Shown here: piece after piece, positions 1-62,646 of the stretch
Layout of the letters: each line of letters starts with the position of its first letter
How positions within the stretch are numbered: position 1 is the stretch's first letter
Sequence record: NC_047885.1
DNA: 64,000 bases
Reading direction: 5' to 3' (one strand)
DNA from: Escherichia phage chee24
Position numbers and translations under genes: made by a program
The notes under the pieces: model-generated
Told to the model about the DNA's origin: nothing
Seen by the model: only the letters and a program-made list of their open reading frames with translations
Database searches by the model: none

Positions 1-16
1 ATTTCAACTTTAATTA

Positions 17-1224: not shown

Positions 1225-1262
1225 ATTTATAAAACTCCAATTAGTTTAATAAGGGGTTTAAT

Positions 1263-1553
1263 TTACTTGATAATAATTTGCATTTGATACGGCGTTAATT
1301 CACCGTTTACGGGTAAATTATTATCGCTTAGCCACTCATAAAAAGCACCATCATCATCAAAAGGGACAATATCGTTATCACGGGAATCGACGGAAATAAT
1401 ACCATCCGTATTAGTTTTGGCGGCTAGGATAGGCCCGAAGCTGTAAACTTTATCAGATTCCATTTCATCCGGTGAAATGAATACTTTTTCGTCCAATGTT
1501 TTGGGTAATGTAACTTTCATTTTTTGACTCCTATAATAGCGGCTATATTTCAA
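1263..1553 (-). CDS. hypothetical protein (96 aa)
   Basis: ORF in pre-early block, tight spacing with neighbours. Confidence 0.45.
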   Translation of the reverse strand: MKYSRYYRSQKMKVTLPKTLDEKVFISPDEMESDKVYSFGPILAAKTNTDGIISVDSRDNDIVPFDDDGAFYEWLSDNNLPVNGELTPYQMQIIIK

Positions 1554-1573
1554 GCCGCTAGGGTATTAATTAT

Positions 1574-3238
1574 TTACGCGAAAAATTTACCGTTTTTAAA
1601 GTCGATCAAAGTGCGCTGACCGTTTGCATAGGTAATAACATGCGTTTGCGTCCAGCTTGACGCGCCAACGTTGTAACCCATGTCCAGACTACCAGACACG
1701 CCAGCGGTGTATACGCCGCCGTAAATGCTGGCGGTATGAGTGTGCCCCGTGTTTAATTTGCCCAATTTCTTAAACTGTTTCGGATTGCCACGGCTCCCGT
1801 TTATGCCATTGTGACCGTGTACGCCGCATTCAATACCTGCAATCTTGAAAGATTGATCAGTGGTCAGAAAAATGGCGTTAAATTCACAACCTGCAACCTT
1901 GCGCAGCGCATAATCTAGCACGTTGAAAGTATCGTCATGATCACCGATTGCCGCGTAAATTGCAGCATTTAGGCGGTGATATAGTTCCGCGTTTGCTGGA
2001 TCGTCTTTAATGTTAGCATTACGATCATCTAACCAGCGGGATAGCGCCAGATCATGATTAGACTCAACAATGATTGTTTGCGAAAAATCGCGCTCCATTG
2101 ACTCCAGCACGCGACCGGTATCGATAAGATCATCCAGAACTTTATCACGTCCGGCGGCATACTGTTTTGCTAGGAATACACCCGAAGCGCGGTTGTGATG
2201 GTTGCGTGATGTAAAGTCGTGAACGTCATGGATAAACTGATATTTTGGTTTAAGAATATCAAGCAAGCTATTTTCGCCAGCCCATGACGCAACGGCGCAA
2301 GCGTCATCCAATTTTTCGGCGTGTACGTCGCCATATTGTAAACCTAAAACGTGCCCCGTTGTTTCATAACATCCGGCGGGAGTGGCGCAAACATTCAGAT
2401 CATAAAACACCCCGCTTTCGTCCATTGTTTCAAGCTGGCGCACAAAAAACTCACCGTCTTCGTCGAACTCAACAATCAGCGCCCCGAAATTATGCAGTGC
2501 TTCCGCTTTCTGTCCTGCTTTCTGCTGAATGTAGTTTTTAAGCGTTGCCGTTCCGGTTGAATACATACGGCGCACAATTTCACCTTTTAAAGCTGGAACG
2601 CTTTCGGCGGTAATTTTTGCCGCTCCAATTGCCAGACCTTCGATATTTAAAGCCGTTGCAGTTTCTGCAAATCCAGAAAGCGGATAATCTGCGGTTGGCA
2701 AAACATTAATTTCAGCCATGAAAGCAAAGCGGCGGTTATTTAAAAACACGTTTTTGCTGCAAATATATTTATCGAACGCGGAATCATATTTGATTCCGTC
2801 GGCGCCCTCGCCATTTTGAAAACCGTTTTTATTATAAATATACTTGCTAACTAGCAAATCAGCACCAATAAATTGGGCGTATTGTTCAAGCGAGGCTAAA
2901 AAGTTTTTATGAGGGAACGTATTATTCTGAATCGATGTAATAATAAAGCGTTTACCCTGCTTTACTTCCCATTGTTCAACCGTGCTAGAAACAATCCCCG
3001 CCGCTTCTGGGCGCTCATCGTTTTTAATGGCTTTTGCTACTTTCGCCGCTTTCGGTTTCGCTGGTTTATTTGCTTCCAGCCAATCGCAAATTGCGGTGGA
3101 GTGTTTTGTTGTATCATAAACCGCTTTAGAAATATCGTCGCACACTTCCAGCTTAGTAGCGCGCAGGCGTTTACCGTAGAAATTGAAATCAGCGGCCATT
3201 TTCAGGATAACGGTTTGTTTTTCTGCGGAAATAACCAT
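1574..3238 (-). CDS. A1: A1-like pre-early protein with calcineurin-like metallophosphoesterase domain
   Basis: 554 aa; phosphoesterase motifs GDVHAE and GHTHT; size and position match T5 A1. Confidence 0.75.
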   Translation of the reverse strand: MVISAEKQTVILKMAADFNFYGKRLRATKLEVCDDISKAVYDTTKHSTAICDWLEANKPAKPKAAKVAKAIKNDERPEAAGIVSSTVEQWEVKQGKRFIITSIQNNTFPHKNFLASLEQYAQFIGADLLVSKYIYNKNGFQNGEGADGIKYDSAFDKYICSKNVFLNNRRFAFMAEINVLPTADYPLSGFAETATALNIEGLAIGAAKITAESVPALKGEIVRRMYSTGTATLKNYIQQKAGQKAEALHNFGALIVEFDEDGEFFVRQLETMDESGVFYDLNVCATPAGCYETTGHVLGLQYGDVHAEKLDDACAVASWAGENSLLDILKPKYQFIHDVHDFTSRNHHNRASGVFLAKQYAAGRDKVLDDLIDTGRVLESMERDFSQTIIVESNHDLALSRWLDDRNANIKDDPANAELYHRLNAAIYAAIGDHDDTFNVLDYALRKVAGCEFNAIFLTTDQSFKIAGIECGVHGHNGINGSRGNPKQFKKLGKLNTGHTHTASIYGGVYTAGVSGSLDMGYNVGASSWTQTHVITYANGQRTLIDFKNGKFFA

Positions 3239-3336
3239 AATAATAAAACTCCATTAAAGGGATTAAAAAACGTTTGTTATTGGCAAATATTGCCAAATAT
3301 AACGCCGCTCATTTACAGCGTTATAATTTGCAACAT

Positions 3337-3582
3337 TTAACTAATTGGCACTAGGCTAGAACTAACACCACAAACAACGGCAGCAATAAAACAAAGTAAG
3401 CCCAAACGCTTTGCTAATTTAGATTTACGTTTAAAATAATACGAATCTAAATCATTTTGAAAATAAGCGAACAATAGGGAGGCCGCTACAATAAATAAGC
3501 CTAAAATTAGCGATTCAGTGGGAAAGAAAACCATTTTAATAACTCCAGTCAAAGGGAAATTATAGTGGGGAATATTCCCCAC
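3337..3582 (-). CDS. small hydrophobic membrane protein (81 aa)
   Basis: ORF with two hydrophobic segments; in pre-early operon. Confidence 0.45.
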   Translation of the reverse strand: MGNIPHYNFPLTGVIKMVFFPTESLILGLFIVAASLLFAYFQNDLDSYYFKRKSKLAKRLGLLCFIAAVVCGVSSSLVPIS

Positions 3583-3591
3583 TAATTAAAT

Positions 3592-3999
3592 TTATTCGCC
3601 TGCGGCTTGTTTTACTTCATCGGCAACGCCTAACAGTTGCGCCACGGCGTCCAGCGTTTCTAATTTTGCGCTTTCCAGCGATGCCAGATCGTCGGCGTCT
3701 TTGATAATGCCGGAATCAATAGCATGTTTAGCGATAACGCGCACATAGTGAGCCTTACGAATTGAACTGCCGCCGCCAACTTTGCGCGGCTTATCGCTTT
3801 TCTGGTACGCTTTTGCGCTGGTCAATTTTGAGCGAACAGACACGGGAGAAGCCGCACCAACTGTTTTTGCGATCTCTTTCAGGCCGTCGCTGTTGGCGAA
3901 CTCCAAGCCGTTTTCATTGATCAACTGTTGATACATGGTAACAGCCTGCTGGGTGTTTTCTTCATTCCAAGAGAATTTTGCGGTTTTAGCGTTAGTCAT
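3592..3999 (-). CDS. A2: A2-like pre-early protein (135 aa)
   Basis: 135 aa ORF immediately downstream of A1 on same strand; size and position match T5 A2; no catalytic motif seen. Confidence 0.55.
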   Translation of the reverse strand: MTNAKTAKFSWNEENTQQAVTMYQQLINENGLEFANSDGLKEIAKTVGAASPVSVRSKLTSAKAYQKSDKPRKVGGGSSIRKAHYVRVIAKHAIDSGIIKDADDLASLESAKLETLDAVAQLLGVADEVKQAAGE

Positions 4000-4097
4000 G
4001 ATTATAACTCCTATTGATTTAATTTAAGGGATAAGATTAACATAATGTTAATCGTTATATACCCCGAACTACTGGGGTATATAAAGTTAACACTAAA

Positions 4098-4349
4098 TTA
4101 TAAAACAGCTTCCCATTTTTCGTTGCGCTGGGCAACCTTTACAACGTCGCCGGATTTAACCCGAACGCTATAAATAGTTTTCCCGTTGTTACTCCGTTCC
4201 GTTTCAGCGTATACCGCATCAATTACATCAAACGGCATAAGCGCCGCGCCTTTAATGCGTTCGGCCTTTCCGGTTAATTCGTCCGTTTTAGTAACGAAAG
4301 GAATAAAAACGGATTGACCAATTTTTGGCGCATTAGTAACGTTTTTCAT
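4098..4349 (-). CDS. hypothetical protein (83 aa)
   Basis: ORF in pre-early block. Confidence 0.45.
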   Translation of the reverse strand: MKNVTNAPKIGQSVFIPFVTKTDELTGKAERIKGAALMPFDVIDAVYAETERSNNGKTIYSVRVKSGDVVKVAQRNEKWEAVL

Positions 4350-4577
4350 GGTATAAACTCCAGTTTATTCAGTGGATTGTTCCGCATTACCTGCTAGAAA
4401 GTAGCAGGTAATAAGCAACAATCCGCTCGCCATTATAATCAATTTAAAGAACTCCACTCAGGCCGCTATATCCCAGTTAGGGGGCGGGACACATTATGGT
4501 AAGTGCCGACCGTCAAATTTTATCAAGTTATCGCTCTCATCGAACTGGGTACATCTTAAAGCCTATCGGCTAGGGTG

Positions 4578-4781
4578 TCAAACAGTTTTTTGCAGTTTTT
4601 TATGATTTTCTTTCAGGTCAATCATAATATTGCGCCAGATCATTTCCAAACCTTGCTGGCGGCCTTTCTTGTACTGCATGAATCTGAATTTTACGGATTG
4701 TTGAGCTATTGTCAACAGCTTTCTAGTATTGCCATCCAATTTTTTGGCGGGTTTACCAGTGATTAATAAAGTTTGTTTCAT
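4578..4781 (-). CDS. hypothetical basic protein (67 aa)
   Basis: ORF with GGAGGG RBS; start ATG overlaps stop of upstream small ORF (ATGA). Confidence 0.45.
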   Translation of the reverse strand: MKQTLLITGKPAKKLDGNTRKLLTIAQQSVKFRFMQYKKGRQQGLEMIWRNIMIDLKENHKKLQKTV

Positions 4782-4936
4782 TCCACGCCCTCCAGTGCAT
4801 ACAGACCTTTACCATCATTACAGAATACAACCGCTTCTGAATGGTTGGCGTGATATTCGTTTGCCGCTTTTACCCATTGCTCGATCTTTTCGATCGTGTC
4901 ATGGGTTGCTGGATGATCGTTATATATTGTTTGCAT
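4778..4936 (-). CDS. hypothetical small protein (52 aa)
   Basis: Hand-translated ORF (below track cutoff) with AAGGAA RBS; translationally coupled to 4578-4781. Confidence 0.35.
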   Translation of the reverse strand: MQTIYNDHPATHDTIEKIEQWVKAANEYHANHSEAVVFCNDGKGLYALEGVE

Positions 4937-5372
4937 ATCTGCGATTCCTTATAATGAATAAGTTTACCGCCGATAGACTTTAAGATATACCCAATTTTTA
5001 AAGAGCGCGGCGGTAAACTTCCCGCCGTGTAGTTCGTCATTGCCGCCCTACGTGATAAATAATAGGGTATTCCCGAAAATGGCGCAACCTTATTTTTGTA
5101 AAGAAACGTAAAGAAAGCAACACGTTCGGCGCTCACCTAAGTTTAAAGGAAACGGGCGCGCGAATACCATAAAACCAAGCAGATAGGCAAGTAATTTTTT
5201 CATTTATATTTGCCTTGCCCTACTTGACAAAATCTAAAAAGCTCGTGGTAGCGATAAACGGCTTATCCCCTTATGATGGGATGGCTAAAAACTTCATCGC
5301 GTTCTAGGACGTTTTAGGCGCATTCTAGCCTTGTTGATAACTTATCCCCAAAAGCAAAAATGAAATTTTCCT

Positions 5373-5410
5373 AGTTATCCACTTGACTTTTATTTTCCAG
5401 TGGATAACTA
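5373..5410. repeat. inverted repeat containing two facing DnaA-box-like sequences
   Basis: AGTTATCCAC ... GTGGATAACT, perfect 10-bp arms. Confidence 0.6.
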
Positions 5411-5720
5411 CTTATTTTATAAAATTAATTAATTGACTTTTATTTGTTAGTGTGTATCGGAAAGATAGCAGACTAATAATTGTTAGGATTATAATCATGC
5501 TGGTGGATTGTAACAGCCTGAACTATTAGCAGACTATTAATCTCGGAAAATCTCATTAGCCAACTAACTATTTCATATTATATAATATACATATAAATTA
5601 ATGAGAAATAATAATTATAAGAAATCGTAACCGATAGAAATAATAACTACAAAAATAATCACCGTTATAATAATAACGATAAGAAACTATCGGCCTAAGT
5701 GAGAACCACTATCATTTAAG

Positions 5721-5813
5721 TTATTCACAAAGTTATCCACAGCACAAAATGATTTGACACGATAGGCGGCGATATAAGGACTTATCCACAGACTTATCCA
5801 CATGTTATCCTAC
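5721..5813. promoter_or_regulatory. cluster of five DnaA-box-like 9-mers
   Basis: TTATTCACA, TTATCCACA (x3), TTATCCTAC within about 90 bp. Confidence 0.6.
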
Positions 5814-5828
5814 TGTATATTTATACAG
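5813..5828. repeat. 16-bp perfect palindrome CTGTATATTTATACAG (copy 1)
   Basis: Exact palindrome adjacent to DnaA-box cluster; identical copy at 9368-9383. Confidence 0.7.
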
Positions 5829-6094
5829 GGTAAAAAGGTAGTGTTAACAACTGCAATCAATTTTAAGCGGCCTAAAACGCTTTCTAACGAGCAAAACGCT
5901 ATAGGGTAATATTAAAGTAAAGCCTCAACGCGTCGCCCTGGTGACTTCGCCGTGTTTTGCTCTTTACTATACCGCTGCGCGTTTAACATAAAAATAAGCG
6001 TTAGGCAAGGAAAATAAAAAGGTAAAATAATATTTGCCCCTAGAAAGAAAATACCTTTATCATTCACTCACCGATTAACGAGGGAGGCCAACAA

Positions 6095-7087
6095 ATGCGG
6101 CTATATAAACCAGATAACGCAACCGTCTTAAAAGGTGCGTTGCGTAACCTGCTGGATGGTAGCAGAACAACCAGCATTAAACATTTTGTTTTCAATATTG
6201 AAACACTTCATCGTAATTTTCTTGATGATTACGATGCTTATAATATGAATAGTTTTCTACCGTTATATAATCAAGGGGCAACGCTTGTTTTATATAATCA
6301 GGAATCTCACTTGCTTACTAGTCGAGGGCCAGATACTGATTTTATTATAGTGAAAGGCAGTACAGTAAAAGCCTATGATGCGGGGGCGGGCTTAGAAGTT
6401 TTCACGATAGAAAATTATGAGCCTTATGATAAGGATCTTTATGACGTAGAAAATTTTCTCGATTCATTTTGGCGTTATTTATCAATTGGGTGGAATCGAT
6501 CAGATTATCACGGGTATCGTTTTGCGGCTATAATGGCTTTTGATGATAACGGTAATTTTTTGCTACCGTCGGAATTATACCCGTATGTATATAATGATTT
6601 AATAGAGGAGGCTGGTTTTACTTTCTGGAAAGATGAAGATCAGCCTATTGACAACACGGAAAAACATGCTGTAAATTCTAACACTCAAAGCGTTAACACT
6701 CAAATTACTGAAAACAAAGGAAAAAATACCATGACCAAGATCGCTAATATCGTTGCCGCCAATAAGTCTGCTGTTGTAAATGCTGCAAAACTGGAAGCGG
6801 GTAAAATTGCATTAACTCAAATCACGAAAGTAGCGGCTAAAAAAGCGCCGTTTATGATTAAAGGTTATATTGATACGCCGATTGGTCGGGTAGTTATTGC
6901 CAACCTGCTGAGCGTAGCGGTTGACCAGTACGCCCCAGCTAACCAGAAAGCGAAAGCGGTAGCAGGTGCAGCTATGGAAGCGGCTATGTTAGAAATGGTG
7001 CAAAGTTTTAACATCGCTGAAATGATCGATGAAATGGTGAAAGGTATTGATATTTCTACTTTTACCACTAGCACCGAAAGCGAGTAA
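6095..7087 (+). CDS. hypothetical protein (330 aa, Ala/Lys-rich C-terminal region)
   Basis: ORF with GAGGGAGG RBS; first gene of rightward cassette bounded by inverted DnaA-box/palindrome repeats. Confidence 0.6.
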   Translation: MRLYKPDNATVLKGALRNLLDGSRTTSIKHFVFNIETLHRNFLDDYDAYNMNSFLPLYNQGATLVLYNQESHLLTSRGPDTDFIIVKGSTVKAYDAGAGLEVFTIENYEPYDKDLYDVENFLDSFWRYLSIGWNRSDYHGYRFAAIMAFDDNGNFLLPSELYPYVYNDLIEEAGFTFWKDEDQPIDNTEKHAVNSNTQSVNTQITENKGKNTMTKIANIVAANKSAVVNAAKLEAGKIALTQITKVAAKKAPFMIKGYIDTPIGRVVIANLLSVAVDQYAPANQKAKAVAGAAMEAAMLEMVQSFNIAEMIDEMVKGIDISTFTTSTESE

Positions 7088-7151
7088 TAATATTAAGCGG
7101 GGATTGTTACCCCGCTTTACTATTCCCTTGTTAATTAATAGGAGGCTAATT

Positions 7152-7646
7152 ATGCCAGAAGAAAAATATGGCTTCTCACTGGGAGAAGTGAGTACGGCTA
7201 AACATGATATGATTGTTTTAGTCGATTGCCATACCGGTTATTGCGGGGAAGGGAATACTGAGGAATATTTTGTTCCTGCTGGTACGGATCTCGACGCTTT
7301 CGCCCATGAAATGGCTGTTGATAATGCTTCTCGTTTTGGTAGCGATGGTTACGAAGACGAAGAAACGGGCGATTGGTATGAGAATGATAATGTATATGCA
7401 AGCCTTTATCATTATCAATTAAGTAAATCCGGCACATATGTAAACGGCGGTGATCCTATTAATTCCGTCATGAAATTAATTATTAAATATGGCGGCGTCG
7501 AGATAGTCGATAACAAAGCGGTAATATATGCAAACCGATTAAAACAGCTTGTTTATATCCCTGATAGTACCCGATGGGAGGAATATGCTGTTTTGCATGA
7601 TGAATTAAAACGATGTTTCAATATTGAAACCTTACAAGTAGTTTAA
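7152..7646 (+). CDS. hypothetical protein (164 aa)
   Basis: In-frame ATG with GGAGG RBS inside track ORF 7047-7646; followed by hairpin plus T-run terminator. Confidence 0.6.
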   Translation: MPEEKYGFSLGEVSTAKHDMIVLVDCHTGYCGEGNTEEYFVPAGTDLDAFAHEMAVDNASRFGSDGYEDEETGDWYENDNVYASLYHYQLSKSGTYVNGGDPINSVMKLIIKYGGVEIVDNKAVIYANRLKQLVYIPDSTRWEEYAVLHDELKRCFNIETLQVV

Positions 7647-7661
7647 TGTAAAGTTTTGTAA

Positions 7662-7690
7662 AGGCCGCCTCTTATGGTGGCCTTTTTTGT
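7662..7690 (+). terminator. rho-independent terminator
   Basis: Hairpin AGGCCGCC..GGTGGCCT followed by TTTTTT. Confidence 0.65.
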
Positions 7691-7754
7691 TATAATGCCT
7701 TTACACCGTTTAAGGACGGTTGAAAATTTTCCCAAAAAATTTTGGAGGCTTATA

Positions 7755-7985
7755 ATGGTTGCTTATTCTTCTTCTGACGCTCTTTTCACTGGAAAAGGCT
7801 GGGTATCAAATCGCTGGATCATTCAAGAAATGGTGCAAGAATATGGCATTGCTAAAACTTACACTACCATTCAGGCGCTTTATGATAATGATCAAATTGA
7901 TCAGCAAACGGCGGGCTTTTTGCTGGATACCCTAAAAGCGGAACACTGCACCAAAAAACAAGCTGCAAAAATTGTTTTAATGTAA
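7755..7985 (+). CDS. hypothetical protein (76 aa)
   Basis: In-frame ATG with GGAGG RBS inside track ORF 7674-7985. Confidence 0.5.
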   Translation: MVAYSSSDALFTGKGWVSNRWIIQEMVQEYGIAKTYTTIQALYDNDQIDQQTAGFLLDTLKAEHCTKKQAAKIVLM

Positions 7986-8181
7986 TTAATAAAGGGGGAT
8001 ACTATATCCCCCACTAACTAGAGAGAATAAAAATGGTTATTTTTCGAGCTATTCTAGCAGGTATCTTGGGCGCTATTTTATCACTTTTTGCAATAGCTTT
8101 CGGCGTTCACGCGGTTATTATTGGCGCGGGGATTGCCGTTTTTTCTTATCTGCTGGGCTGCATGAATAAAGGAGAATAAAA

Positions 8182-8394
8182 ATGATCCGCAACGTTTCCC
8201 TTGCCCGCTCCAAAGGCTTTAAGCTGGTGGACGTTAACACGTTTGAGCGGGAGGATTGTAAAATCGAATATGTAGCACGCAACAAAAATGCCTTTCGTGT
8301 TACAGAAAAGAAATTTGACAAGCGCGGCAACGTGATCGCTGAAACGGTTAAACACTTTGCCACCTTTTACGCTGCGTTTCGTGGGGTGTTATAA
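8182..8394 (+). CDS. hypothetical protein (70 aa)
   Basis: ORF with AAGGAG RBS. Confidence 0.5.
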   Translation: MIRNVSLARSKGFKLVDVNTFEREDCKIEYVARNKNAFRVTEKKFDKRGNVIAETVKHFATFYAAFRGVL

Positions 8395-8395
8395 A

Positions 8396-8740
8396 ATGGT
8401 TATTTATGAGGGCAATCGTTTTGTTGCTAATTGCCGTCCGGCATTACTAGCAAACTATTTAAATCAGGTTTCACCTGAATATAAAGGCGTCATTAATATT
8501 TACGAGGGTAAGGCGCACTATAAAATTAATGCGGTCGTTGCCCGTGAATTAGCATTTCAATTTTTGACCTTTGCATCTTGTGACGTTCAGGTTATGGGTG
8601 AAGCATTAATTGCAGAAAATGAAGATGATTTTATTAATATTTTCCGCAAGATATGCACCGAGCGCCTGATCATGAAAGGCGCATATATTCAATCCACTGC
8701 GGATAGCATTGAAACAGCGTTTCGAAAGGTGGCGCAATGA
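8396..8740 (+). CDS. hypothetical protein (114 aa)
   Basis: In-frame ATG overlapping upstream stop (coupled); inside track ORF 8357-8740. Confidence 0.5.
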   Translation: MVIYEGNRFVANCRPALLANYLNQVSPEYKGVINIYEGKAHYKINAVVARELAFQFLTFASCDVQVMGEALIAENEDDFINIFRKICTERLIMKGAYIQSTADSIETAFRKVAQ

Positions 8741-8913
8741 AAAAGTTTTTAATAGCTGGTATGTTTCCTTTGTTGCCTTATGTAATTTGCTGGGCTTTAT
8801 ACGCTCATGGTGCTAGTGTTCCCGGTGTGGCCTCGTTTGGTGTATCGGCTGGTTTTCTAACCGGACTATTGGCAAGCGTATATCTGCGCAAATAATTAAT
8901 AACGGGAGTTATT

Positions 8914-9108
8914 ATGAGCAATAAAATTGTTGTAACCAAAATCAGTACAATGGTTGACGTTTTTTATGTGCCCGATACGCCGGAAAACCGGCAAGCGGTC
9001 GAGCGTGGCGAGTATGATAAAGTGATTTATGATCACGATGGTTACTATCAACATTTGGTGGATTCCTACGGGGAGGGGGAAAAAATCACGCATCGACTAC
9101 CAGACTAG
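8914..9108 (+). CDS. hypothetical protein (64 aa)
   Basis: ORF with GGGAG RBS; last gene of rightward cassette. Confidence 0.45.
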   Translation: MSNKIVVTKISTMVDVFYVPDTPENRQAVERGEYDKVIYDHDGYYQHLVDSYGEGEKITHRLPD

Positions 9109-9367
9109 TAATCACGGGGGCGCAACTACCAGGGAGTGCCCCCAATTCTCAAATGAGAATGATTCTCATTTGACCGCGCCCGCGATGGTTAGCCTGCTAA
9201 TGATTAGGGTGTTACGTGTCGCCTTGTGTGATCGTTAGCAGGCTAACTAATTTTTAAGCCTCCTCCAATTTTGCCCTTGTTTTAGTATCCCCATCAAAAT
9301 TAAACGCGTTAGAATGCGATTCAGGACGTTTTAGGCCTATATTAGAATTATTCACTACATAGGAGTA

Positions 9368-9383
9368 CTGTATATTTATACAG
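9368..9383. repeat. 16-bp perfect palindrome CTGTATATTTATACAG (copy 2)
   Basis: Identical to 5813-5828; followed by reverse-orientation DnaA boxes. Confidence 0.7.
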
Positions 9384-9405
9384 TAGAATAACCTGGGGAT
9401 AAGTC

Positions 9406-9475
9406 TGTGGATAACGCCTCAAAATGGCTAGGATTCTGTCAAGTCAAATCGTGCTGTTGATAAGTCTGTGGATAA
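9406..9475. promoter_or_regulatory. two DnaA-box-like sequences in reverse orientation (TGTGGATAA)
   Basis: Each within the motif GATAAGTCTGTGGATAAC, mirroring 5781-5803. Confidence 0.6.
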
Positions 9476-9500
9476 CTTAAATAACAGTGTTTCTCACTTC

Positions 9501-9680
9501 CATTTTTAAATGCGAATCATTATCATTTGCATTTCACTGTCTAACTGATAATCATTTCACTTTTTAAATGAGAATCATTTCACTTTTTGAATAGTTCTCA
9601 TTCCGCTTTTTAAATGAGAATAATTATCATTCGCATTTCACTTTTTAAATGAGATTGATTCTCATTATCATTCGCATTTA
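9501..9680. repeat. AT-rich repeat array (five copies of CACTTTTTAAATGAGAAT-like unit with palindromic AATGAGAATCATT cores)
   Basis: Visible repeated units at roughly 20-40 bp intervals. Confidence 0.6.
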
Positions 9681-9709
9681 GGCGAGCAGGGCAATTGCCC
9701 TGCGCTTTT

Positions 9710-9932
9710 GTGCAAATCCGACATTGCTCCACGGGTGTTACGTGCGGGCGTGTATGTGCGAATCCGACAATTTTTGGTAGTGTGCGAATCCGACCCGAAA
9801 AATTTTTATAGTGTGCAAATCCGACAATGAATTTTCCCAAAAACTCCAGCAATCTCGAACTGCGTTCGAATCCTGTGGAATTAGCTAGAATATGTGCAAA
9901 TCCGACATGTGTTGAGATGTGCGAATCCGACA
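9710..9932. repeat. iteron array: six direct copies of GTGC(A/G)AATCCGAC(A/C)
   Basis: Copies at 9710, 9756, 9782, 9813, 9894, 9919; irregular spacing. Confidence 0.75.
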
Positions 9933-10261
9933 AGATTTTTGTGACTTCGATTGGAGGGTGTGTGATTGTATGGGTTTGAGGAGAAGGTGAGAGAGCGAGA
10001 GAAATTTTGGTACTAGAAGGGTGTGGGCGCAGGATTGGTGCGGAGCACCTGATTTGCGGGGATTTTGGGGAAGATGTAAGATAATTTGGGAAGATTTGAG
10101 ATAGGTGCAGAAAAAGTGAAATTTTATTAGCAAAATGGGGCAAAATAGCTTGACAAGTGAAAATTCCTGTGGCTCTAAAAACTCAGGCAATCATGGGCCT
10201 TCGGCCCGAAATAATGCTGCTATTTTCAGGGGAGTAAAAGTTCCTAAAAACTTAGGCGTTT

Positions 10262-10310
10262 GTGCAAATCCGACCATAAATTTCTAGAAATGCAGTGTGC
10301 AAATCCGACA
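10262..10310. repeat. two further copies of the GTGCAAATCCGAC iteron
   Basis: Copies at 10262 and 10297, each followed by a TTCTAGAAA or TTCTGGAAA palindrome-like motif. Confidence 0.7.
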
Positions 10311-10339
10311 GTAATTTCTGGAAATGTGTTTTCAAAAAA

Positions 10340-10440
10340 TGTCTTCTAGAAATAACCGCCCTCCCTATAACCGCCCTGTATTAACCGCCTAGTATATGTT
10401 CCTAGAAACTTAGGAGAACCGCCCACTAGAAGTGTGATAT
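10340..10440. repeat. AACCGCC short direct repeats (four copies) interleaved with TTCTAGAA-type palindromes
   Basis: ATAACCGCC, ATAACCGCC, TTAACCGCC, GAACCGCC seen within 100 bp. Confidence 0.55.
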
Positions 10441-10787
10441 TTCGTGAGAACTCTGGAGTTTCTAGGAAAGTGTTATGCCATCCTAGCAGATGAGCGACAA
10501 CAGGTGTATCATCTTGAATGTAAATTATGTGGACAAAAGTTTTACCTTTTATTTAAATAAAAGATCCCCCAATCTCGTAAGTCTGCTGCTCTAGGCGTTC
10601 AAGATCTGTATGCTAATCCCGTGAAAACTGCTGCAGAATACATCCTAACGCCAGGGGCGCTGGTGTACTCTTCGAGTTGGGATAGCAATAATCTTGTTGC
10701 CTAGAGCTAAAAACAGAAGTTGTTTTTAATCTATGAGATTATTATAACATGTGCCTTAATGAGTTGTCAAGAAGATTTTGTTAACGT

Positions 10788-11519
10788 TTATTCCTTCCGC
10801 TTGTATTTGAGAACGATACCCTTCGAGACCATGAAGAGGAAAGTTGCAAGATAGGAATGTGGGGATTTTAGCGCATCATAATCTACAGTTCCGAAAGAAC
10901 CTTCGCCAAATACCTCAGAGTTCTCAAATGTAGGAAGTAAACGTGCCAATCCTACAGCTCCTATAATCTTAAAGAATTGATCCCAGTCATTTAACATTGC
11001 TTTATGTGCAGACTGTAAGATTAATGGCATCTCTAGGTTCTTTTCGAGACATAGATGAACCTGCGCAATCGTAGAAGCAATCCCTAGCAACACTTCATCT
11101 TTTGTATAAGGGAATCCAGTATCTTTTCTTTGGAGTCTAGGAAGATGATCATATTCACAACGTTTAGGTGGGATGAACTTTTCCTCGGGATATAATTCTA
11201 ATGCAACTCTAACGTTTCCTTCTTTAAATACTGGAAGTTCCTGATCTGCAAAGACATGATATGAATCTGCCTTGAACCCTACAATCTTATCACCAACAGA
11301 ATTGATGATCTTTCTCATTGCAATATAAGAAGGGGATAGAGTTACGAATTTTTCTTCTTTATTATATTTAACAATTCCAGCTTCTGTATAAGCTGCGGGA
11401 TGAAACTCAGAACAGAATGCTACTGCATGAGCTTCATCAGGAGTTAGTTCAGAAACACATTTGCCGTCAGCATTCTTAGCCAGCTTAATAATAGTCTTTA
11501 AATTCTCACTAATACTCAT
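10788..11519 (-). CDS. hypothetical early protein (243 aa)
   Basis: ORF; first in a run of tightly packed leftward ORFs. Confidence 0.6.
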   Translation of the reverse strand: MSISENLKTIIKLAKNADGKCVSELTPDEAHAVAFCSEFHPAAYTEAGIVKYNKEEKFVTLSPSYIAMRKIINSVGDKIVGFKADSYHVFADQELPVFKEGNVRVALELYPEEKFIPPKRCEYDHLPRLQRKDTGFPYTKDEVLLGIASTIAQVHLCLEKNLEMPLILQSAHKAMLNDWDQFFKIIGAVGLARLLPTFENSEVFGEGSFGTVDYDALKSPHSYLATFLFMVSKGIVLKYKRKE

Positions 11520-11875
11520 ATATCGCTCGCTTGTTCTTCTAATGGGTTGGTAGGGGAGGTTTTCTTCTGTTGACTAGGTTTCTTAATTGTACTTGGCTGT
11601 TTACCTCTAGAAGTTTCAGCGTTATAAACATCTGCACCTCTGTTTCTAAGAACACTAGCAATCCCTGCTAGTGTTGGCCAAGCATATTCTGGCATTTCAA
11701 CAATCTGAGAAACAATATCTTCCATAACTAGATCTTCTGTAAATACAATATATTGAGGCCAATCTATATCTATCTCATCCTCTTTCCAATATTTATTAAG
11801 CGTCCAGCCATTTTCAGAGAATCTCTCTATTTTGAACTTTCCTTCTTTAATATAGCTTGTTAACTTTTTATTCAT
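11516..11875 (-). CDS. hypothetical protein (119 aa)
   Basis: ORF overlapping neighbours by 1-4 nt (operon-like). Confidence 0.55.
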   Translation of the reverse strand: MNKKLTSYIKEGKFKIERFSENGWTLNKYWKEDEIDIDWPQYIVFTEDLVMEDIVSQIVEMPEYAWPTLAGIASVLRNRGADVYNAETSRGKQPSTIKKPSQQKKTSPTNPLEEQASDI

Positions 11876-12489
11876 TAACTACCTCTCTTATTCTCGTCAA
11901 TAACAGCTCCCAATGCCTCCATAATAGTATCTTCTAAGCTTCCATGTTTACTAGGATTATTAAAATGAATAGTATAAACAGAGTTCCTAGAAACTCCAGC
12001 ATCCGCAGGTGCTACGCTTCGCATATCAGATTCAAAAGCTTCTTGGGTATGTTGCAGCTGTACAGAAGGGCCGTAATCTTCACCAAACTTATATGACTTC
12101 GTACTACTTACCACACCCCCACAAGGAACATTGTGCATATCCGACATTAATCTTTTATCGGAGTTATTCAGCATTGAGATTGTCCCTGACTGCCACGGAT
12201 CTCTAATAGTCACTGGAGTACTAGGGCGGTTCACCTCAGTCTTCACAAGTTTGTATCCTGCATCGATCAGTGCATTAATCAGGTTATCCGCCGGGATGCG
12301 AGCCGTACCAAAAATCTTACGAGCGTCCTCGAGCTTACCTTCAAGATCTTTACATGCTCTAAGGTCAGTGTGTGCAAATGTTAGCTTCATAGATTTGAAT
12401 TGTACAGTAGCAGTCAAATCTTTAAAGCTATAATCCCATGTGTTCAGTTCATGGTCTGGTACTACTTGAATAGGTTGTTGTGTAAACAT
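11875..12489 (-). CDS. hypothetical protein (204 aa)
   Basis: ORF in leftward operon. Confidence 0.6.
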   Translation of the reverse strand: MFTQQPIQVVPDHELNTWDYSFKDLTATVQFKSMKLTFAHTDLRACKDLEGKLEDARKIFGTARIPADNLINALIDAGYKLVKTEVNRPSTPVTIRDPWQSGTISMLNNSDKRLMSDMHNVPCGGVVSSTKSYKFGEDYGPSVQLQHTQEAFESDMRSVAPADAGVSRNSVYTIHFNNPSKHGSLEDTIMEALGAVIDENKRGS

Positions 12490-59357: not shown

Positions 59358-59856
59358 ATTTATATTGAATTGAGAGACATTAGTAAAAATTGATTTTGCT
59401 AATTTTTCTTGTTTACAATCCGCGATACGGAACAGTTAGGCTGCCCCATTAAGGGTTGTTTTAACTGTTACGTGTTAGTTTTTAAACAAATAGTTAATAG
59501 AATACTTAGCGATCTGCGTCCCGTAGGAACCCTGGTAAGGCCTCGAAGCAACCTAGATAGAGGTGGTTGTGAAGTGAGACGGGAGGAGTGAAAAACTCCG
59601 AGACGTGATTCTGTAAGTTATATTGCATCTAGTATGAGCTAGTATATGAAGCATTAGGTGAGCAAATCTGGCTTAGCGGCCATCCTCAAGGATTTGTGCG
59701 GTATAGCAAAGCAGCAGCGCAGCGTGAAAGTGGAAGTTGCCACCCCACTTCAGTATTTGCGATTAATTTGTTGAGAAATTGACAGTAACAGTTGTTCTAT
59801 TCTTTCTGAATAGTCCTAAAGAAAACTTATTTCATTTCCAACACAGGAGTATTGTT

Positions 59857-62646
59857 GTGTTTTCAATCCTACAAGGTCATGCAGGATTTCATCGCGATTT
59901 AGCCACAGGCAATTGGCGAGAAGTTAAAGCAGAAGATTATCTTTTTGCTAAAAGATTTTCCTCAAAGCATCCTGAAGGTAAACCAGCTTCAATGCCCTTC
60001 AAGTTTGATGTAATTGACGAAGTTGATCCTCAAACCCTAGTAGAAATGCTTCCTCTTATGAGACGTTTAACGTCTGACCCTCATATCGTTGCGGTACGAG
60101 GTCGATGTCTTGCACCTAAAAATAATGTGCGACGTAAGAAGGGCAACTTTAATGTATCTAATCCAAGTCATATAATCGCAATGGATGTGGATGGTATTGT
60201 AGATACAGGAGGTTGTAACAAGTTTGATCTTGTTGGCATGGCGCGTCATATTATTAGGATGTTGAATAGTATTAGTGAGGATATGTTTCCTCTTGATGCA
60301 GGGTTTATTGCTCATGCATCATCTTCGGCTGGACTAAAACCAGGTATCCGAATGCACTTAATACTAGAATCTAATGTTAAAGTTACACAGGGCCAGATCA
60401 AGTTCTTATTTACATCTATCAACGAAAGTAGTAGACAAAAGTATGGTTTTGATATTGCCGACTTAGCTTATTACTCTTCCGTACAGCTCCACTATTTTGC
60501 AGATCCTTTATTTACTGATGGTATAGTTGATCCGTTTAAAGCGGAGAGTGCTTCACGTCTGGTATTTGTTAAAGGCTCAAAAGTAAATTTACCTAATAAT
60601 CTAGTTGACTATGAAACAACTAGAGGAGAGTTTAAAGAGGAATTCTACTCTTTACTCGATCAAATTAAAGGTAAAAAAGCTGCCTCTGATAAAGTAGAGG
60701 AAACTATCAGTGAGCTAGAAGAGGCTGATGATGGGGTATACTTACGTATTATTCCAAAGCTATATCACCGAGCGTTAGAGGATGGGGTAGATTTTGGTTG
60801 GCTAGAGAAAGAAATCCGCCCAGCTTTATCAGAATATATTGCAACTAAAGATAATAGCCGTAATATTCAGGATTATTTCAATAACGGACGGAAGCAGGCA
60901 TTAAAAGCCTTTGTGAATAACTCTAAGCGTGAGATCCCTGAAGTATTAAAAGGTATCCCCCTTAAAAAGCTAGAAACTAACTCACTAGAGACCGACAACT
61001 TCTTGAAATTAAATACTGTACCACCAGAAGGCTATATGACTTTTGTAAAAGCAAGTCTAGGTACAGGTAAAACCACGGCTGTTGTTCGTTGGCTGGATTC
61101 AGGGGTTATTAAAGGTAATTTCTTAGCAATTACCAATACTAGGGCACTAGTGTCTTCAAATGCTAAGAAATTTAGCGCAGGTCAATATGATAAATCTGTA
61201 GATATGCTCAACTTTAAACGTGGGGCTATTGATCGTATGTCCACAACCATTCACTCTTTGCATAAGTTTAAGAGTTTTATTGGTCAAATTGATGCAATCT
61301 TTATAGATGAATGTGATGCAGTAATGAATGACCTATTATTCGCCCCGGTTGTTAAGCAACGTCGCGAGTGTATTCAGGTTCTTCGAGATATTCTTGCAAC
61401 TGCAAAAATAATTATATTATCTGATGGAGATATTAGTGCAGAAACAATTGAAGCATATGGTTCTTTGATTGAGTTTGATAAACCAGTTGCATTTTACAAT
61501 CACCACCGTAAAATGTTATCAAAGGCTCATGCTTATGAGTTTCCTGATGAATCCAGTATTTGGGTTGCACTTCAAACATCACTAGAGATGGGTGAGAAAT
61601 CTATTCTAGTATCTGATTGTGGCCCTGATGAGCTGAATGAGAAGGGTATGGCACTACGTCGTAATACTGGTGCGTTAGTTAAGGAAATCCATTCAAACTC
61701 TACCTCAGATGTGGATATTCGACGTATTCTGGATTATACAACTAATGAGCTAATTGATCAACAAATTGATTGCTTATTATGTAGTCCATCCGTAACGAGT
61801 GGTGTTGACTTCAACTATTTTGATAACGTATTCGTTATTACTAGAACCAGTAATCAAGCGCCAAACATGCGTTTTCAAGCAATCAGGCGCGACCGTGGTG
61901 CTCAGAACATCTATTATTTTATTGATAAATCCACTAGTGGATTCTCCGCAGGTTCTGAACAATATAATATTGATGAAGGTTGGCTGGAGTTAGCACAGCA
62001 ATTATACGCACGTCGCAGGGAGCTGGAATCTAGAAACTATACTAGTACCTTACGTTATTACTTGCTTGATCAGGGTGCAACTATTGATATTTTCAGCGAA
62101 AGCTGGGGAACTATTGAAGGTGCTGGTAAAGAGTACACAGAAGAGCGAATCAAAGCTATTCTACATTCAACCCCGGATTATTGTGCTCCACGTCATGCGG
62201 ATGCGTATGAAGCTAAACTACTTCTTGTTCGCTATTATCATCTTGAGTCTATTAAAGATGTAACAGTTGAGCATGTTGAACAATATATCAAAGATAAACC
62301 GAATGATCGAGCTGCATTCTTCCATAAGATGCACGAGATGTTCTGGGAAGATATTAAGAAGTGTTCAAATATAACCATTAAACCATTCATAGAAGCTCTA
62401 AAAGGTAAGAAAAAGGACTTCTTCCTTAAAACAGGTCAGAGTGCTAACCCAAAATATGCTAGAATGTATCTTGGTATGATGGGTATCGGTAAGGATATGA
62501 ACACTGAAAATATCGTAGACTGGTATAGAACCTACTGCAAAATCGAGTGTATGCCAATTCCTTATAAGTTCATGACTGATGAGGAAAAACATATGCACGA
62601 TGAAGCAATGTCAGAACTAGGTGCTAGAAATGACAGTGAAGAATAA
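59857..62646 (+). CDS. P-loop NTPase/helicase-like protein (candidate replication origin-binding helicase)
   Basis: GTG start with AGGAG RBS inside track ORF 59779-62646; Walker A GTGKTT and Walker B FIDECD in central region. Confidence 0.65.
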   Translation: MFSILQGHAGFHRDLATGNWREVKAEDYLFAKRFSSKHPEGKPASMPFKFDVIDEVDPQTLVEMLPLMRRLTSDPHIVAVRGRCLAPKNNVRRKKGNFNVSNPSHIIAMDVDGIVDTGGCNKFDLVGMARHIIRMLNSISEDMFPLDAGFIAHASSSAGLKPGIRMHLILESNVKVTQGQIKFLFTSINESSRQKYGFDIADLAYYSSVQLHYFADPLFTDGIVDPFKAESASRLVFVKGSKVNLPNNLVDYETTRGEFKEEFYSLLDQIKGKKAASDKVEETISELEEADDGVYLRIIPKLYHRALEDGVDFGWLEKEIRPALSEYIATKDNSRNIQDYFNNGRKQALKAFVNNSKREIPEVLKGIPLKKLETNSLETDNFLKLNTVPPEGYMTFVKASLGTGKTTAVVRWLDSGVIKGNFLAITNTRALVSSNAKKFSAGQYDKSVDMLNFKRGAIDRMSTTIHSLHKFKSFIGQIDAIFIDECDAVMNDLLFAPVVKQRRECIQVLRDILATAKIIILSDGDISAETIEAYGSLIEFDKPVAFYNHHRKMLSKAHAYEFPDESSIWVALQTSLEMGEKSILVSDCGPDELNEKGMALRRNTGALVKEIHSNSTSDVDIRRILDYTTNELIDQQIDCLLCSPSVTSGVDFNYFDNVFVITRTSNQAPNMRFQAIRRDRGAQNIYYFIDKSTSGFSAGSEQYNIDEGWLELAQQLYARRRELESRNYTSTLRYYLLDQGATIDIFSESWGTIEGAGKEYTEERIKAILHSTPDYCAPRHADAYEAKLLLVRYYHLESIKDVTVEHVEQYIKDKPNDRAAFFHKMHEMFWEDIKKCSNITIKPFIEALKGKKKDFFLKTGQSANPKYARMYLGMMGIGKDMNTENIVDWYRTYCKIECMPIPYKFMTDEEKHMHDEAMSELGARNDSEE

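What the first reader, a model, noticed from the sequence alone, without database searches (positions are those of the whole stretch)
9710..10310. Eight 14-bp iterons GTGC(A/G)AATCCGAC at the pre-early/early boundary
Eight direct copies of a GC-containing 14-mer lie in an otherwise AT-rich non-coding stretch with irregular spacing, as in iteron-type origins or protein-binding arrays. They sit where a T5-type genome would have its DNA-injection pause region and terminal-repeat boundary. The sequence-specific binder is not evident from the window.
Basis: partly seen in the sequence, partly recalled or inferred. Interest (0 to 1): 0.6.

Follow-up and report, generated by a model that had tools for sequence, protein, structure and literature searches.

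The report
Phage T5 "direct repeat D" array
The eight repeats are real, but they are the long-known "direct repeat D" elements of phage T5 at the boundary between first- and second-injected DNA; they look like docking sites for a still-unidentified DNA-binding protein, most plausibly the phage's own A2 protein.

Summary
There are eight exact, same-strand copies of TGTGCRAATCCGAC at 9709-10310.

The window is the left 64 kb of a T5-like phage (chee24 group). The repeats are the "direct repeat D" (DRD) copies 1-8 annotated in T5 GenBank record AY587007, with the same spacings to within one base. As a feature this is already known. Its function and binder are not.

What I add:
- The stretch is non-coding. 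The one annotated ORF across it is broken in 26 of 26 relatives.
- The array starts 3-4 nt right of the 7.9% nick (CCCTGCGC). The nick signal itself does not include DRD.
- The true right end of the terminal repeat lies inside the array, at window 10175|10176. That is 244 nt after copy 6 and 87 nt before copy 7, in a block that is also conserved in Klebsiella phages.
- The core GTGCAAATCCGA survives in Klebsiella and Vibrio (Thalassavirus) relatives whose spacers cannot be aligned. A variant occurs in metagenomic relatives. Proteus and Vibrio D36 relatives lack it.
- No plasmid or host-genome arrays were found.

The iteron-origin reading is not supported. The main rival is terminase recognition of the terminal-repeat end.

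The parts
9709..9723 (+). DRD copy 1 (TGTGCAAATCCGACA)
   Evidence: Homologous to T5 AY587007 'direct repeat D copy 1' at 9672-9686.
9755..9769 (+). DRD copy 2 (TGTGCGAATCCGACA)
9781..9795 (+). DRD copy 3 (TGTGCGAATCCGACC)
9812..9826 (+). DRD copy 4 (TGTGCAAATCCGACA)
9893..9907 (+). DRD copy 5. This is the most variable copy among relatives; in some it is shifted by about 10 nt.
9918..9932 (+). DRD copy 6, the last copy inside the terminal repeat
10261..10275 (+). DRD copy 7, the first copy outside the terminal repeat; its core starts 87 nt beyond the repeat end
10296..10310 (+). DRD copy 8
   Evidence: T5 has a ninth, 1-mismatch copy 137 nt further on, which this window lacks.
12132..12146 (+). 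Lone DRD-like copy (1 mismatch here, exact in T5 and several relatives), antisense inside ORF 11875..12489(-)
9698..9705 (+). Major 7.9% nick site CCCTGCGC, 3-4 nt left of DRD1. It lies in the 3' half of hairpin 9686-9703 (T5 palindrome J).
   Evidence: AY587007 annotation. The same 8-mer is found at T5 nicks 2 and 3 with no DRD nearby. The PhageTerm 'repeat ends' of Seabear and Sugarland fall here. Hairpin.
10120..10230 (+). Best-conserved block of the region. It holds the exact right end of the terminal repeat (...ATTCCTGTGGCTC | TAAAAAC, window 10175|10176) and the hairpin GGGCCTTCGGCCC (10196-10208).
   Evidence: Klebsiella phages share only window 10104-10181 with this region.
9406..9475 (-). 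Two consensus DnaA boxes (TTATCCACA on the minus strand, at 9406-9414 and 9467-9475), part of the T5 iss region
   Evidence: Davison 2020.
9495..9680 (+). AT-rich block (30-33% GC) of 23-nt repeats and GAGAATNATTCTC-type palindromes (T5 DRC/DRE, palindromes E-I), between the DnaA boxes and the nick
3592..3999 (-). Pre-early gene A2 (135 aa), the proposed reader of the DRD sites. This link is inferred, not shown.

Best explanation
The eight repeats are the 'direct repeat D' (DRD) elements of the T5 injection-stop / terminal-repeat boundary region. I read them as an array of asymmetric, same-orientation binding sites for one sequence-specific DNA-binding protein of the phage lineage.

Shown:
- The array is non-coding.
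- It begins 3-4 nt to the right of the 7.9% nick. That is about where first-step-transfer DNA ends.
- It brackets the exact right end of the terminal repeat.
- Its 12-nt core GTGCAAATCCGA is kept across genera and subfamilies whose spacers have diverged beyond alignment.

Inferred:
- A2 is made from the first-injected 8% of the genome.
- It would dock on DRD sites, which are the first DNA that has to emerge from the channel when transfer restarts.
- It would hold that DNA against back-sliding as successive sites enter, working as a ratchet.
- It would bring its membrane-associated partner A1 to the entry point.
- Two Myb-like domains per dimer could bridge the site pairs spaced 25-35 nt apart.

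On this reading, the copies in the right terminal repeat and the position of the repeat end inside the array are by-products of terminal redundancy.
For: Identity with T5 DRD: the spacings match T5 copies 1-8 to within one base, and the region is about 97% identical.

Non-coding.

Deep conservation of the motif alone:
- Klebsiella Roth37 and Sugarland have 9-11 copies, although only 78 nt of the region can be aligned.
- Vibrio phage Pontus and another Thalassavirus have 8-10 copies of aGGTGCAAAtyCGA in the same place and orientation. The DnaA boxes are in the same order.
- Metagenome contig L166 has 6 exact copies.

Location: directly right of the nick and the first-step-transfer boundary (Davison 2020).

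A2:
- It is essential for second-step transfer, it binds DNA, and its mechanism is unknown (10.64898/2026.04.02.716235).
- The segment RK[A/E/I]HYVR is present in all 5 DRD-bearing lineages.
- It is changed in all 4 lineages that lack or vary the motif: RKAHVVF, PKISYIR, RKIEVVN and RKSHLVS.
- Proteus phage 2 is otherwise closer to T5 than Pontus is (DNA polymerase 69% vs 58% identity). It nevertheless lacks both DRD and HYVR.
Against: - No binding data exist.
- The covariation rests on only about two independent DRD-bearing clades and about four non-DRD clades. It concerns a helix outside the predicted three-helix domain.
- The candidate recognition helix (SVRSKL) is also kept in phages without DRD.
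- One initially correlated residue (YQK) failed when a new lineage was added.
- The model does not explain why the terminal-repeat end sits in the gap of the array in both T5-like and Klebsiella phages.
- It does not explain the lone copy at 12133 or the pair inside T5 gene D13.
Confidence: 0.38

Rival explanations
1. Packaging signal. The DRD clusters are recognition sites for the terminase small subunit (like cosB or pacL/pacR). They flank the site where the right genome end is cut from concatemers. T5 injects its left end first, so the right end is packaged first, and copies 1-6 would lie within 244-467 nt of the first-packaged end.
For: - The terminal-repeat right end maps to the same sequence...ATTCCTGTGGCTC|TAAAAAC, in two T5 records, BF23 and Sepoy (PhageTerm), Spc35 and several IMG/VR contig ends. 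It lies between copies 6 and 7.
- In a Klebsiella phage, the left-repeat/unique junction and the right-repeat end diverge exactly after CTGTGGCTC, with 5 copies inside and 6 outside.
- The block around the cut is the best-conserved part of the region, and the only part shared with Klebsiella phages.
- No DRD lies at the left genome end, as expected if only the initiation end is marked.
Against: - The helix-turn-helix region of the small terminase subunit (T5.156, phrog_3802) differs strongly between T5-like and Thalassavirus phages, which share the motif.
- It is closer between T5 and Proteus phage 2, which lacks the motif.
- The nearest copy is 244 nt from the cut.
- Repeat ends in the Vibrio phage records are inconsistent: 8+0 copies in Pontus, 7+3 in another, where the end falls inside a copy.
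- The packaging direction is inferred from general phage biology. It was not shown here.
Confidence: 0.25
2. Iteron-type replication origin. DnaA boxes, an AT-rich unwinding block and iterons form an origin that is fired by a phage initiator, for example the UL9-like helicase at 59779..62646.
For: - The order DnaA boxes (9406-9475), AT-rich repeats (9495-9680), direct repeats (9709-10310) resembles P1 oriR or pSC101 origins (the resemblance is from memory). The same order is seen in Vibrio phage Pontus.
- The phage encodes a protein that matches Pfam Herpes_ori_bp above the family cut-off (29.1 bits vs 20).
- From memory only: the HSV UL9 box CGTTCGCACTT shares TTCGCAC with the reverse complement of DRD.
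Against: - There is no initiator gene next to the array.
- Spacing is irregular and unphased (25-343 nt).
- All copies are direct, whereas UL9 boxes are inverted.
- The Pfam match covers only helicase motifs (profile positions 51-197 of 820), not a DNA-binding domain.
- The helicase is 66% identical in DRD-less Proteus phage 2 but only 44% identical in DRD-bearing Pontus.
- There is no similarity to any of 72,556 plasmids.
- The literature cited in 10.1101/866236 places T5 origins near the genome centre.
Confidence: 0.1
3. Host-factor sites that form part of the stop signal. A conserved host protein of Enterobacterales and Vibrio binds the DRD copies at the channel exit and helps to stall DNA entry until A1/A2 relieve the block.
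For: - The identical core occurs in phages of E. coli, Salmonella, Klebsiella and Vibrio.
- The stop needs the host cell (established knowledge of T5).
- Neighbouring elements (DnaA boxes, Fur-box-like palindromes) look like host-protein sites.
Against: - The motif is absent from Proteus phage and Vibrio phage D36 relatives, which keep A1 and A2. Whether those phages also pause injection is not known.
- No two-copy arrays occur in any Enterobacterales or Vibrio genome among 185,579 species representatives. Of 18 hits, 2 are mis-binned T5-like fragments and the rest are unrelated repeats.
- I know of no host regulator with this consensus.
- The array lies to the right of the shear point, so it is outside the cell at the pause.
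Confidence: 0.1

Closest known systems
Direct repeat D (DRD) of bacteriophage T5 Repeat Region 3 / injection stop signal (Heusterspreute 1987; Wang 2005, GenBank AY587007; Davison 2015, 2020)
   Same: Same sequence, same order and the same spacings to within one base for copies 1-8. Same neighbours: DnaA boxes, DRC/DRE repeats, palindrome J, the 7.9% nick and DRA repeats. The region is about 97% identical.
   Different: The window lacks T5's ninth, 1-mismatch copy because the sequence diverges after about 10390. Otherwise it is the same element.
pac site of Bacillus phage SPP1 (pacL-pacC-pacR) and cosB of phage lambda (R sites)
   Same: Clusters of short asymmetric repeats on one or both sides of a fixed terminase cut site. 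Here the terminal-repeat right end lies between two DRD clusters.
   Different: Binding by the small terminase subunit is not shown, and its helix-turn-helix region does not co-vary with the motif. The nearest site is 244 nt from the cut on the inner side and 87 nt on the outer side. The comparison with SPP1 and lambda is from memory.
Iteron origins of theta plasmids (P1 oriR, pSC101, RK2 oriV)
   Same: Direct repeats next to an AT-rich block and DnaA boxes.
   Different: No adjacent Rep gene, irregular spacing, units of 14-15 nt rather than 17-22 nt, no plasmid homology, and origin activity not expected here.
Short repeat arrays SRL/SRR flanking the terminal repeat of phage T7
   Same: Arrays of short direct repeats at the inner boundary of a direct terminal repeat in a phage that injects its DNA in stages (from memory).
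   Different: Different sequence, 7-nt units in tight tandem, a 160-bp repeat, and no homology.
GcrA / Myb-type DNA-binding domains (for the proposed reader A2)
   Different: Sequence identity is 12-19% only. No Pfam match was found in the local library. This is fold resemblance, not family membership.

Membership tests
T5 direct repeat D (DRD) array | Unit sequence TGTGCRAATCCGAC, all copies on the same strand | tested here: met
   8 exact copies, all on the + strand. Identical to the T5 units.
T5 direct repeat D (DRD) array | Position: right of the 7.9% nick and palindrome J, spanning the end of the left terminal repeat, between the pre-early and early genes | tested here: met
   AY587007 feature table and alignment. 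Convergent gene arrangement.
T5 direct repeat D (DRD) array | Copy spacing pattern 46-26-31-81-25-344-35 | tested here: met
   Window 46-26-31-81-25-343-35 against T5 46-26-31-81-25-344-35.
Iteron-type replication origin | Regularly phased direct repeats of about 17-22 bp | tested here: not met
   Units of 14-15 nt with spacings of 25-343 nt and no helical phasing.
Iteron-type replication origin | Adjacent AT-rich unwinding element and DnaA boxes | tested here: met
   30-33% GC at 9400-9700. Two TTATCCACA boxes at 9406-9475.
Iteron-type replication origin | Cognate initiator gene adjacent to, or co-varying with, the repeats | tested here: not met
   The flanking genes have unknown function and no match to any Pfam family. 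The UL9-like helicase lies 50 kb away and does not track motif presence.
Iteron-type replication origin | Replication initiates there | not testable with these tools
   The literature quoted in 10.1101/866236 places T5 origins near the genome centre.
Terminase recognition site (cosB / pac type) | Lies next to the sequence-specific cut that creates a genome end | tested here: met
   The terminal-repeat right end at 10175|10176 lies between copies 6 and 7. The same is seen in a Klebsiella phage.
Terminase recognition site (cosB / pac type) | Bound by the small terminase subunit | tested here: inconclusive
   Binding is not testable with these tools. Indirectly, the helix-turn-helix region of the subunit is poorly conserved between T5-like and Thalassavirus phages, which share the motif.
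Herpesvirus-type origin (UL9 boxes) | Inverted initiator boxes flanking an AT-rich spacer, and an initiator with the UL9 C-terminal DNA-binding domain | tested here: not met
   All copies are direct. The Pfam Herpes_ori_bp match covers only profile positions 51-197 of 820.

The most novel reading that the evidence does not exclude
The DRD array is the cis-acting restart signal of T5 two-step DNA injection. Pre-early protein A2 would read the sites through a Myb/GcrA-like domain as they emerge from the tail channel. [quoted passage not shown] This would be a DNA-import mechanism with no described parallel in other phages. The same A2-DRD pair would be ancestral to Demerecviridae, from E. coli phages to Vibrio phages.
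Probability: 0.3. Interest if true: 0.75.

Novelty: already known. Interest (0 to 1): 0.35.

Why it matters
How T5 stops after injecting 8% of its DNA and then restarts has been open since the 1960s. Papers from 2026 still call the mechanism unknown. The DRD array is the most sharply defined sequence-specific element at that boundary, and nobody has named its binder.

This analysis shows that the 12-nt core is conserved far beyond T5-like coliphages. It also shows that the array brackets the exact terminal-repeat end. It narrows the candidate binders to A2 first and the small terminase subunit second. That turns the question into a simple gel-shift experiment.

The work also corrects several annotations: a spurious CDS, a terminal repeat about 208 nt too short in the chee24-group records, and PhageTerm 'ends' that are really the nick.

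Tried and rejected
- **Nick signal.** The three T5 major nicks examined share CCCTGCGC, and only nick 1 has DRD next to it. Rejected.
- **Coding repeat.** The spacings are not multiples of three, and the overlapping ORF is broken in all relatives. Rejected.
- **Known RNA.** Rfam gives nothing meaningful for 8800-11000: one hit at 16 bits against a gathering score of 627.
- **Plasmid origin homology.** None among 72,556 plasmids.
- **Host-genome arrays.** A two-copy pattern scan of 185,579 species genomes gave 18 hits. Two are mis-binned T5-like fragments. The rest are unrelated coding or tandem repeats in non-host phyla. One Bacteroidales pair lies near ffh and is judged chance.
- **Gene presence/absence screen.** I compared T5-like ORFs with Pontus (has DRD), D36 and Proteus phage 2 (both lack it). 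Only three genes were specific to the DRD-bearing genomes: a phrog_1491 'tail fiber' protein, a T5orf172-type nuclease and a 92-aa unknown. None is an obvious DNA reader.
- **Strict covariation columns.** A2 has 2 and the small terminase subunit has 1. One of the A2 columns (YQK) failed on a new lineage.
- **Footprint within Tequinta- and Epseptimaviruses.** The cores are only modestly better conserved than the spacers (0.94 vs 0.87), because the whole region is constrained. The informative comparison is with distant genera.
- **DRD pair inside T5 gene D13.** Its synonymous sites are as variable as elsewhere in the gene. It is probably not a constrained site.
- **Searches that failed.** The Davison 2015 paper could not be retrieved. 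The 8-sequence A2 alignment was too diverse for a metagenome scan.

Full report
**1. The observation**

GTGCRAATCCGAC occurs with no mismatch at 9710, 9756, 9782, 9813, 9894, 9919, 10262 and 10297, always on the + strand. With up to two mismatches the window gives 13 hits, against a mean of 1.27 in shuffles; 0 of 100 shuffles reach 13.

- The conserved unit is 14-15 nt: TGTGCRAATCCGAC[A/C].
- The start-to-start spacings are 46, 26, 31, 81, 25, 343 and 35 nt.
- The array itself is not AT-rich. It is 40-46% GC. The AT-rich block (30-33% GC) lies just to its left, at 9400-9700.

**2. Where the window comes from**

- Pre-early genes run rightward up to about 9240.
- Early genes run leftward from 11519 down to 10788.
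- The repeats therefore lie in a 1.5-kb gap between convergent transcription units.
- The only CDS annotated across the array (pork29 P29_0014, 9610..10143 minus strand) is open in this lineage alone. It carries stop codons in all 26 aligned relatives.
- The copy spacings are not multiples of three.

The repeats are non-coding.

**3. The array is already named**

GenBank AY587007 (T5, Wang et al. 2005) annotates 'direct repeat D copy 1-9' at 9672, 9718, 9744, 9775, 9856, 9881, 10225, 10260 and 10397. The spacings are 46-26-31-81-25-344-35-137. The window and T5 align at about 97% identity here, and the units are the same. Only the ninth, imperfect T5 copy is missing from the window.

A second T5 record, AY543070, labels 9140-10149 'injection stop signal (iss)'. 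Davison's 2020 preprint (10.1101/866236) lists 'nine DRD repeats' as one of three major repeat classes of 'Repeat Region 3'. He notes that the region is conserved among 25 T5-like phages and assigns DRD no function. His model rests on the DnaA boxes. Papers from 2023 and 2026 still describe the stop signal and the role of A2 as unknown.

As a sequence feature this is already known. Its binder and function are open.

**4. Fine anatomy**

*(a) The nick.* The T5 major 7.9% nick is annotated at CCCTGCGC. In the window this 8-mer is at 9698-9705, 3-4 nt left of DRD1, in the 3' half of the hairpin 9686-9703. T5 nicks 2 and 3 have the same 8-mer with no DRD nearby. DRD is therefore not part of the nick signal. 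The 'repeat ends' predicted by PhageTerm for Seabear and Sugarland fall exactly at this nick, which suggests they are artefacts.

*(b) The end of the terminal repeat.* pork29 annotates the repeat as 1-9968. Every other source places the end at the same sequence...TTGACAAGTGAAAATTYCTGTGGCTC | TAAAAACTCAGGC. These sources are two T5 records, BF23 and Sepoy (both by PhageTerm), Spc35, and the physical ends of IMG/VR contigs that hold both repeats. This corresponds to window 10175|10176.

- The end lies 244-246 nt after the core of copy 6 and 87 nt before the core of copy 7.
- Six copies are therefore duplicated near the right genome end and two are not.

*(c) The best-conserved block.* The block around that end (10120-10230, including the hairpin GGGCCTTCGGCCC) is the best-conserved part of the region in 27 Tequinta- and Epseptimavirus sequences. 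It is also the only part that BLAST still finds in Klebsiella T5-like phages (query positions 415-492, which is window 10104-10181).

**5. Conservation beyond T5-like coliphages**

The region is present in more than 420 phage records at 78-100% identity. The protein-coding gene beside it (10788..11519) is only 32-50% identical in amino acids in most of them. Within this group the DRD cores are only a little better conserved than the spacers (0.94 vs 0.87). The distant comparisons are the informative ones.

| Lineage | DRD status |
|---|---|
| Klebsiella phages Roth37, Sugarland and a 123-kb contig | 9-11 copies of ATGTGCAAATCCGA[C/T] in two clusters around the conserved block; spacers cannot be aligned |
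| Vibrio phage Pontus (Thalassavirus, another subfamily; A2 42% identical) | 8 copies of aGGTGCAAAtyCGA within about 470 nt of the equivalent genome end, followed inward by short tandem repeats and two GTTATCCACA DnaA boxes; same order as T5 |
| A second Thalassavirus contig | 10 copies |
| Metagenome contig L166 (A2 53% identical) | 6 exact copies |
| Distant relatives L117 and L118 (A2 32-34% identical) | variant motif TGAGTACAAATCTGA in the same place |
| Proteus phages (Novosibvirus) and Vibrio phage D36 | no DRD anywhere in the genome; other repeats there instead |

- In the Klebsiella contig that holds both repeats, the left-repeat/unique junction and the right-repeat end diverge exactly after CTGTGGCTC, as in T5. 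There are 5 copies inside and 6 outside.
- A two-copy pattern scan of IMG/VR returned only contigs of 95-123 kb, the size of T5-like genomes.
- The same kind of scan over one genome from each of 185,579 bacterial and archaeal species gave 18 hits. Two are mis-binned T5-like fragments. The rest are unrelated repeats in non-host phyla. None is from Enterobacterales or Vibrio.
- No plasmid has any similarity to the region.
- Rfam finds nothing.

A 12-nt asymmetric core kept in one orientation while everything around it changes is the signature of a protein-binding site.

**6. Who reads it?**

I compared the candidate proteins across genomes that have the motif and genomes that lack it.

*UL9-like helicase.*
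- The 'replication origin binding' protein (59779..62646) matches Pfam Herpes_ori_bp only over helicase motifs (profile positions 51-197 of 820).
- It is 66% identical in DRD-less Proteus phage 2 but only 44% identical in DRD-bearing Pontus.
- It does not track the motif.
- From memory, the HSV UL9 box CGTTCGCACTT shares TTCGCAC with the reverse complement of DRD. I record this as a lead only. UL9 boxes are inverted, whereas these copies are all direct.

*Small terminase subunit.*
- T5.156 belongs to phrog_3802 and lies just upstream of the large subunit.
- Its helix-turn-helix region differs strongly between T5-like and Thalassavirus phages, which share the motif.
- Overall it is closer between T5 and Proteus phage 2, which lacks the motif (50% vs 39% identity).

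*A2.*
- A2 (3592..3999 minus strand) is a pre-early DNA-binding dimer essential for second-step transfer.
- An AlphaFold2 model built on 23 homologues has mean pLDDT 84.
- These domains read short asymmetric sites as monomers. That suits direct repeats better than a palindrome-reading repressor would.
- The segment RK[A/E/I]HYVR, at the start of the long helix 76-95 after a basic flexible arm, is present in all five DRD-bearing lineages: T5, Epseptimavirus, Sugarlandvirus, Thalassavirus and L166.
- It is altered in all four lineages without the canonical motif: Novosibvirus RKAHVVF, D36 PKISYIR, L117/L118 RKIEVVN and L169 RKSHLVS.
- Proteus phage A2 is nearly identical to T5 A2 in the preceding PRKVGxGSSIRKAH. 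It departs exactly at these residues.
- This is suggestive, not strong. It rests on about two independent DRD-bearing clades and four non-DRD clades. Another initially correlated residue (YQK) failed when L166 was added. The putative recognition helix SVRSKL is also kept in DRD-less phages.

*Presence/absence screen.* A screen of all T5-like ORFs found no obvious DNA-binding protein restricted to the DRD-bearing genomes.

**7. Most likely mechanism**

The following points are shown:
- an ancient, non-coding array of oriented sites;
- it begins at the nick and the first-step-transfer boundary;
- it spans the end of the terminal repeat.

What follows is inferred, at about 0.38 confidence.

- At the pause, the DNA left of about 7.9% is in the cell, and the DRD array is the next DNA in the channel.
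- A2 is made from the injected segment. It binds the DRD sites as they become accessible.
- The dimer may bridge the site pairs spaced 25-35 nt apart.
- A2 prevents back-sliding and recruits membrane-bound A1, which restarts transfer.

Rivals:
- **Small-terminase recognition clusters** flanking the right-end cut, like SPP1 pac or lambda cosB (0.25). This explains the position of the repeat end inside the array in two genera and the conserved cut-site block. The diverged helix-turn-helix of the small terminase subunit counts against it.
- **An iteron origin** (0.1). It has the right neighbours (DnaA boxes and an AT-rich block). It lacks an initiator gene, phasing, plasmid homology and literature support.
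- **A host factor contributing to the stop** (0.1).

**8. Verdict**

Its 'iteron origin' reading is not supported. The feature itself has been in the literature since 1987 and in GenBank since 2005, so it is already known.

The remaining value is practical. The core motif is much older and more widespread than has been described. The array brackets the exact terminal-repeat end. A2 is a concrete, cheaply testable candidate reader.

Noticed in passing
window 10741-10770 (minus strand): A perfect sigma-70-type promoter (TTGACA, 18 nt, TATAAT, with an upstream TG) fires leftward into the non-coding DRD region. No gene or Rfam family lies downstream. It may drive an unannotated transcript across the array.
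   Followed up: partly
window 9610-10143 (minus strand): The CDS annotated in pork29 (P29_0014, 177 aa) is open only in this lineage. It has 1-10 stop codons in all 26 aligned relatives, so it is a spurious gene call.
   Followed up: yes
window 9968 vs 10175: The chee24-group records annotate the terminal repeat as 9,968 bp. T5, BF23, Sepoy, Spc35 and IMG/VR contig ends all map the end to window 10175|10176 (...CTGTGGCTC|TAAAAAC). The annotated repeat, and probably the deposited right end, are about 208 nt short.
   Followed up: yes
L006 (Seabear) 1427; L071 (Sugarland) 2139; window 9705|9706: The PhageTerm-predicted 'repeat ends' of two phages fall exactly at the conserved nick CCCTGCGC|, not at the real repeat end. 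The nick seems to mislead read-start-based terminus callers.
   Followed up: partly
window 9155-9663, and 127-139: Palindromes of the type GAGAATNATTCTC cluster in the stop-signal region: 5 of the 12 window hits at up to 2 mismatches, and 0 of 100 shuffles reach 12. They resemble the Fur box GATAATGATAATCATTATC (consensus from memory). An exact GATAATCATTATC lies at 127-139, near the left genome end.
   Followed up: no
T5 AY543070 78936-78962 (L068 12937-12963), outside the window: A pair of DRD sites (GTGCAAATCCTA and GTGCAAATCCGACAA, 15 nt apart, same orientation) lies inside gene D13, about 365 nt right of the 64.8% nick. It codes for VQILQVQIRQ. Its synonymous sites vary as much as elsewhere in the gene: 5 of 10 against 92 of 167.
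   Followed up: partly
window 12133-12145: A lone DRD-like copy (GTGCATATCCGAC; exact in T5 and several relatives) recurs about 1.8 kb right of copy 8, antisense inside ORF 11875..12489 (phrog_5271, function unknown).
   Followed up: no
window 59779-62646 (+): A 955-aa helicase matches Pfam Herpes_ori_bp over helicase motifs only. It is annotated as 'replication origin binding' in relatives. Its DNA target is unknown.
   Followed up: partly
window 9900-10100: There is strong strand asymmetry (GC skew up to +0.61; G-rich and C-poor on the + strand) between DRD copy 6 and the terminal-repeat end. The stretch includes the two DRA repeats at 10065-10104.
   Followed up: no
window 10788-11519 (minus strand): The first early gene next to the array is only 32-50% identical in amino acids in most of the 318 relatives, while the adjacent non-coding region is 78-95% identical. 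Non-coding DNA here is more conserved than the coding DNA beside it.
   Followed up: partly
L050 (SABI01000336.1) and L065 (RZZU01000077.1): Two short contigs binned into 'Spirochaetia' and 'Clostridia' MAGs (INTA.CYC) are fragments of a T5-like phage stop-signal region, so they are mis-binned.
   Followed up: yes
L052 4034-4063; L053 4271-4300: Two Bacteroidales contigs (one from Barnesiella intestinihominis) carry TGTGCAAATCCGA twice, 18 nt apart. The pair sits at the 5' end of a 411-aa ORF that is divergent from, and about 115 nt upstream of, an SRP (ffh-like) gene. I judged this a chance resemblance, but the 13-14-nt identity is striking.
   Followed up: partly
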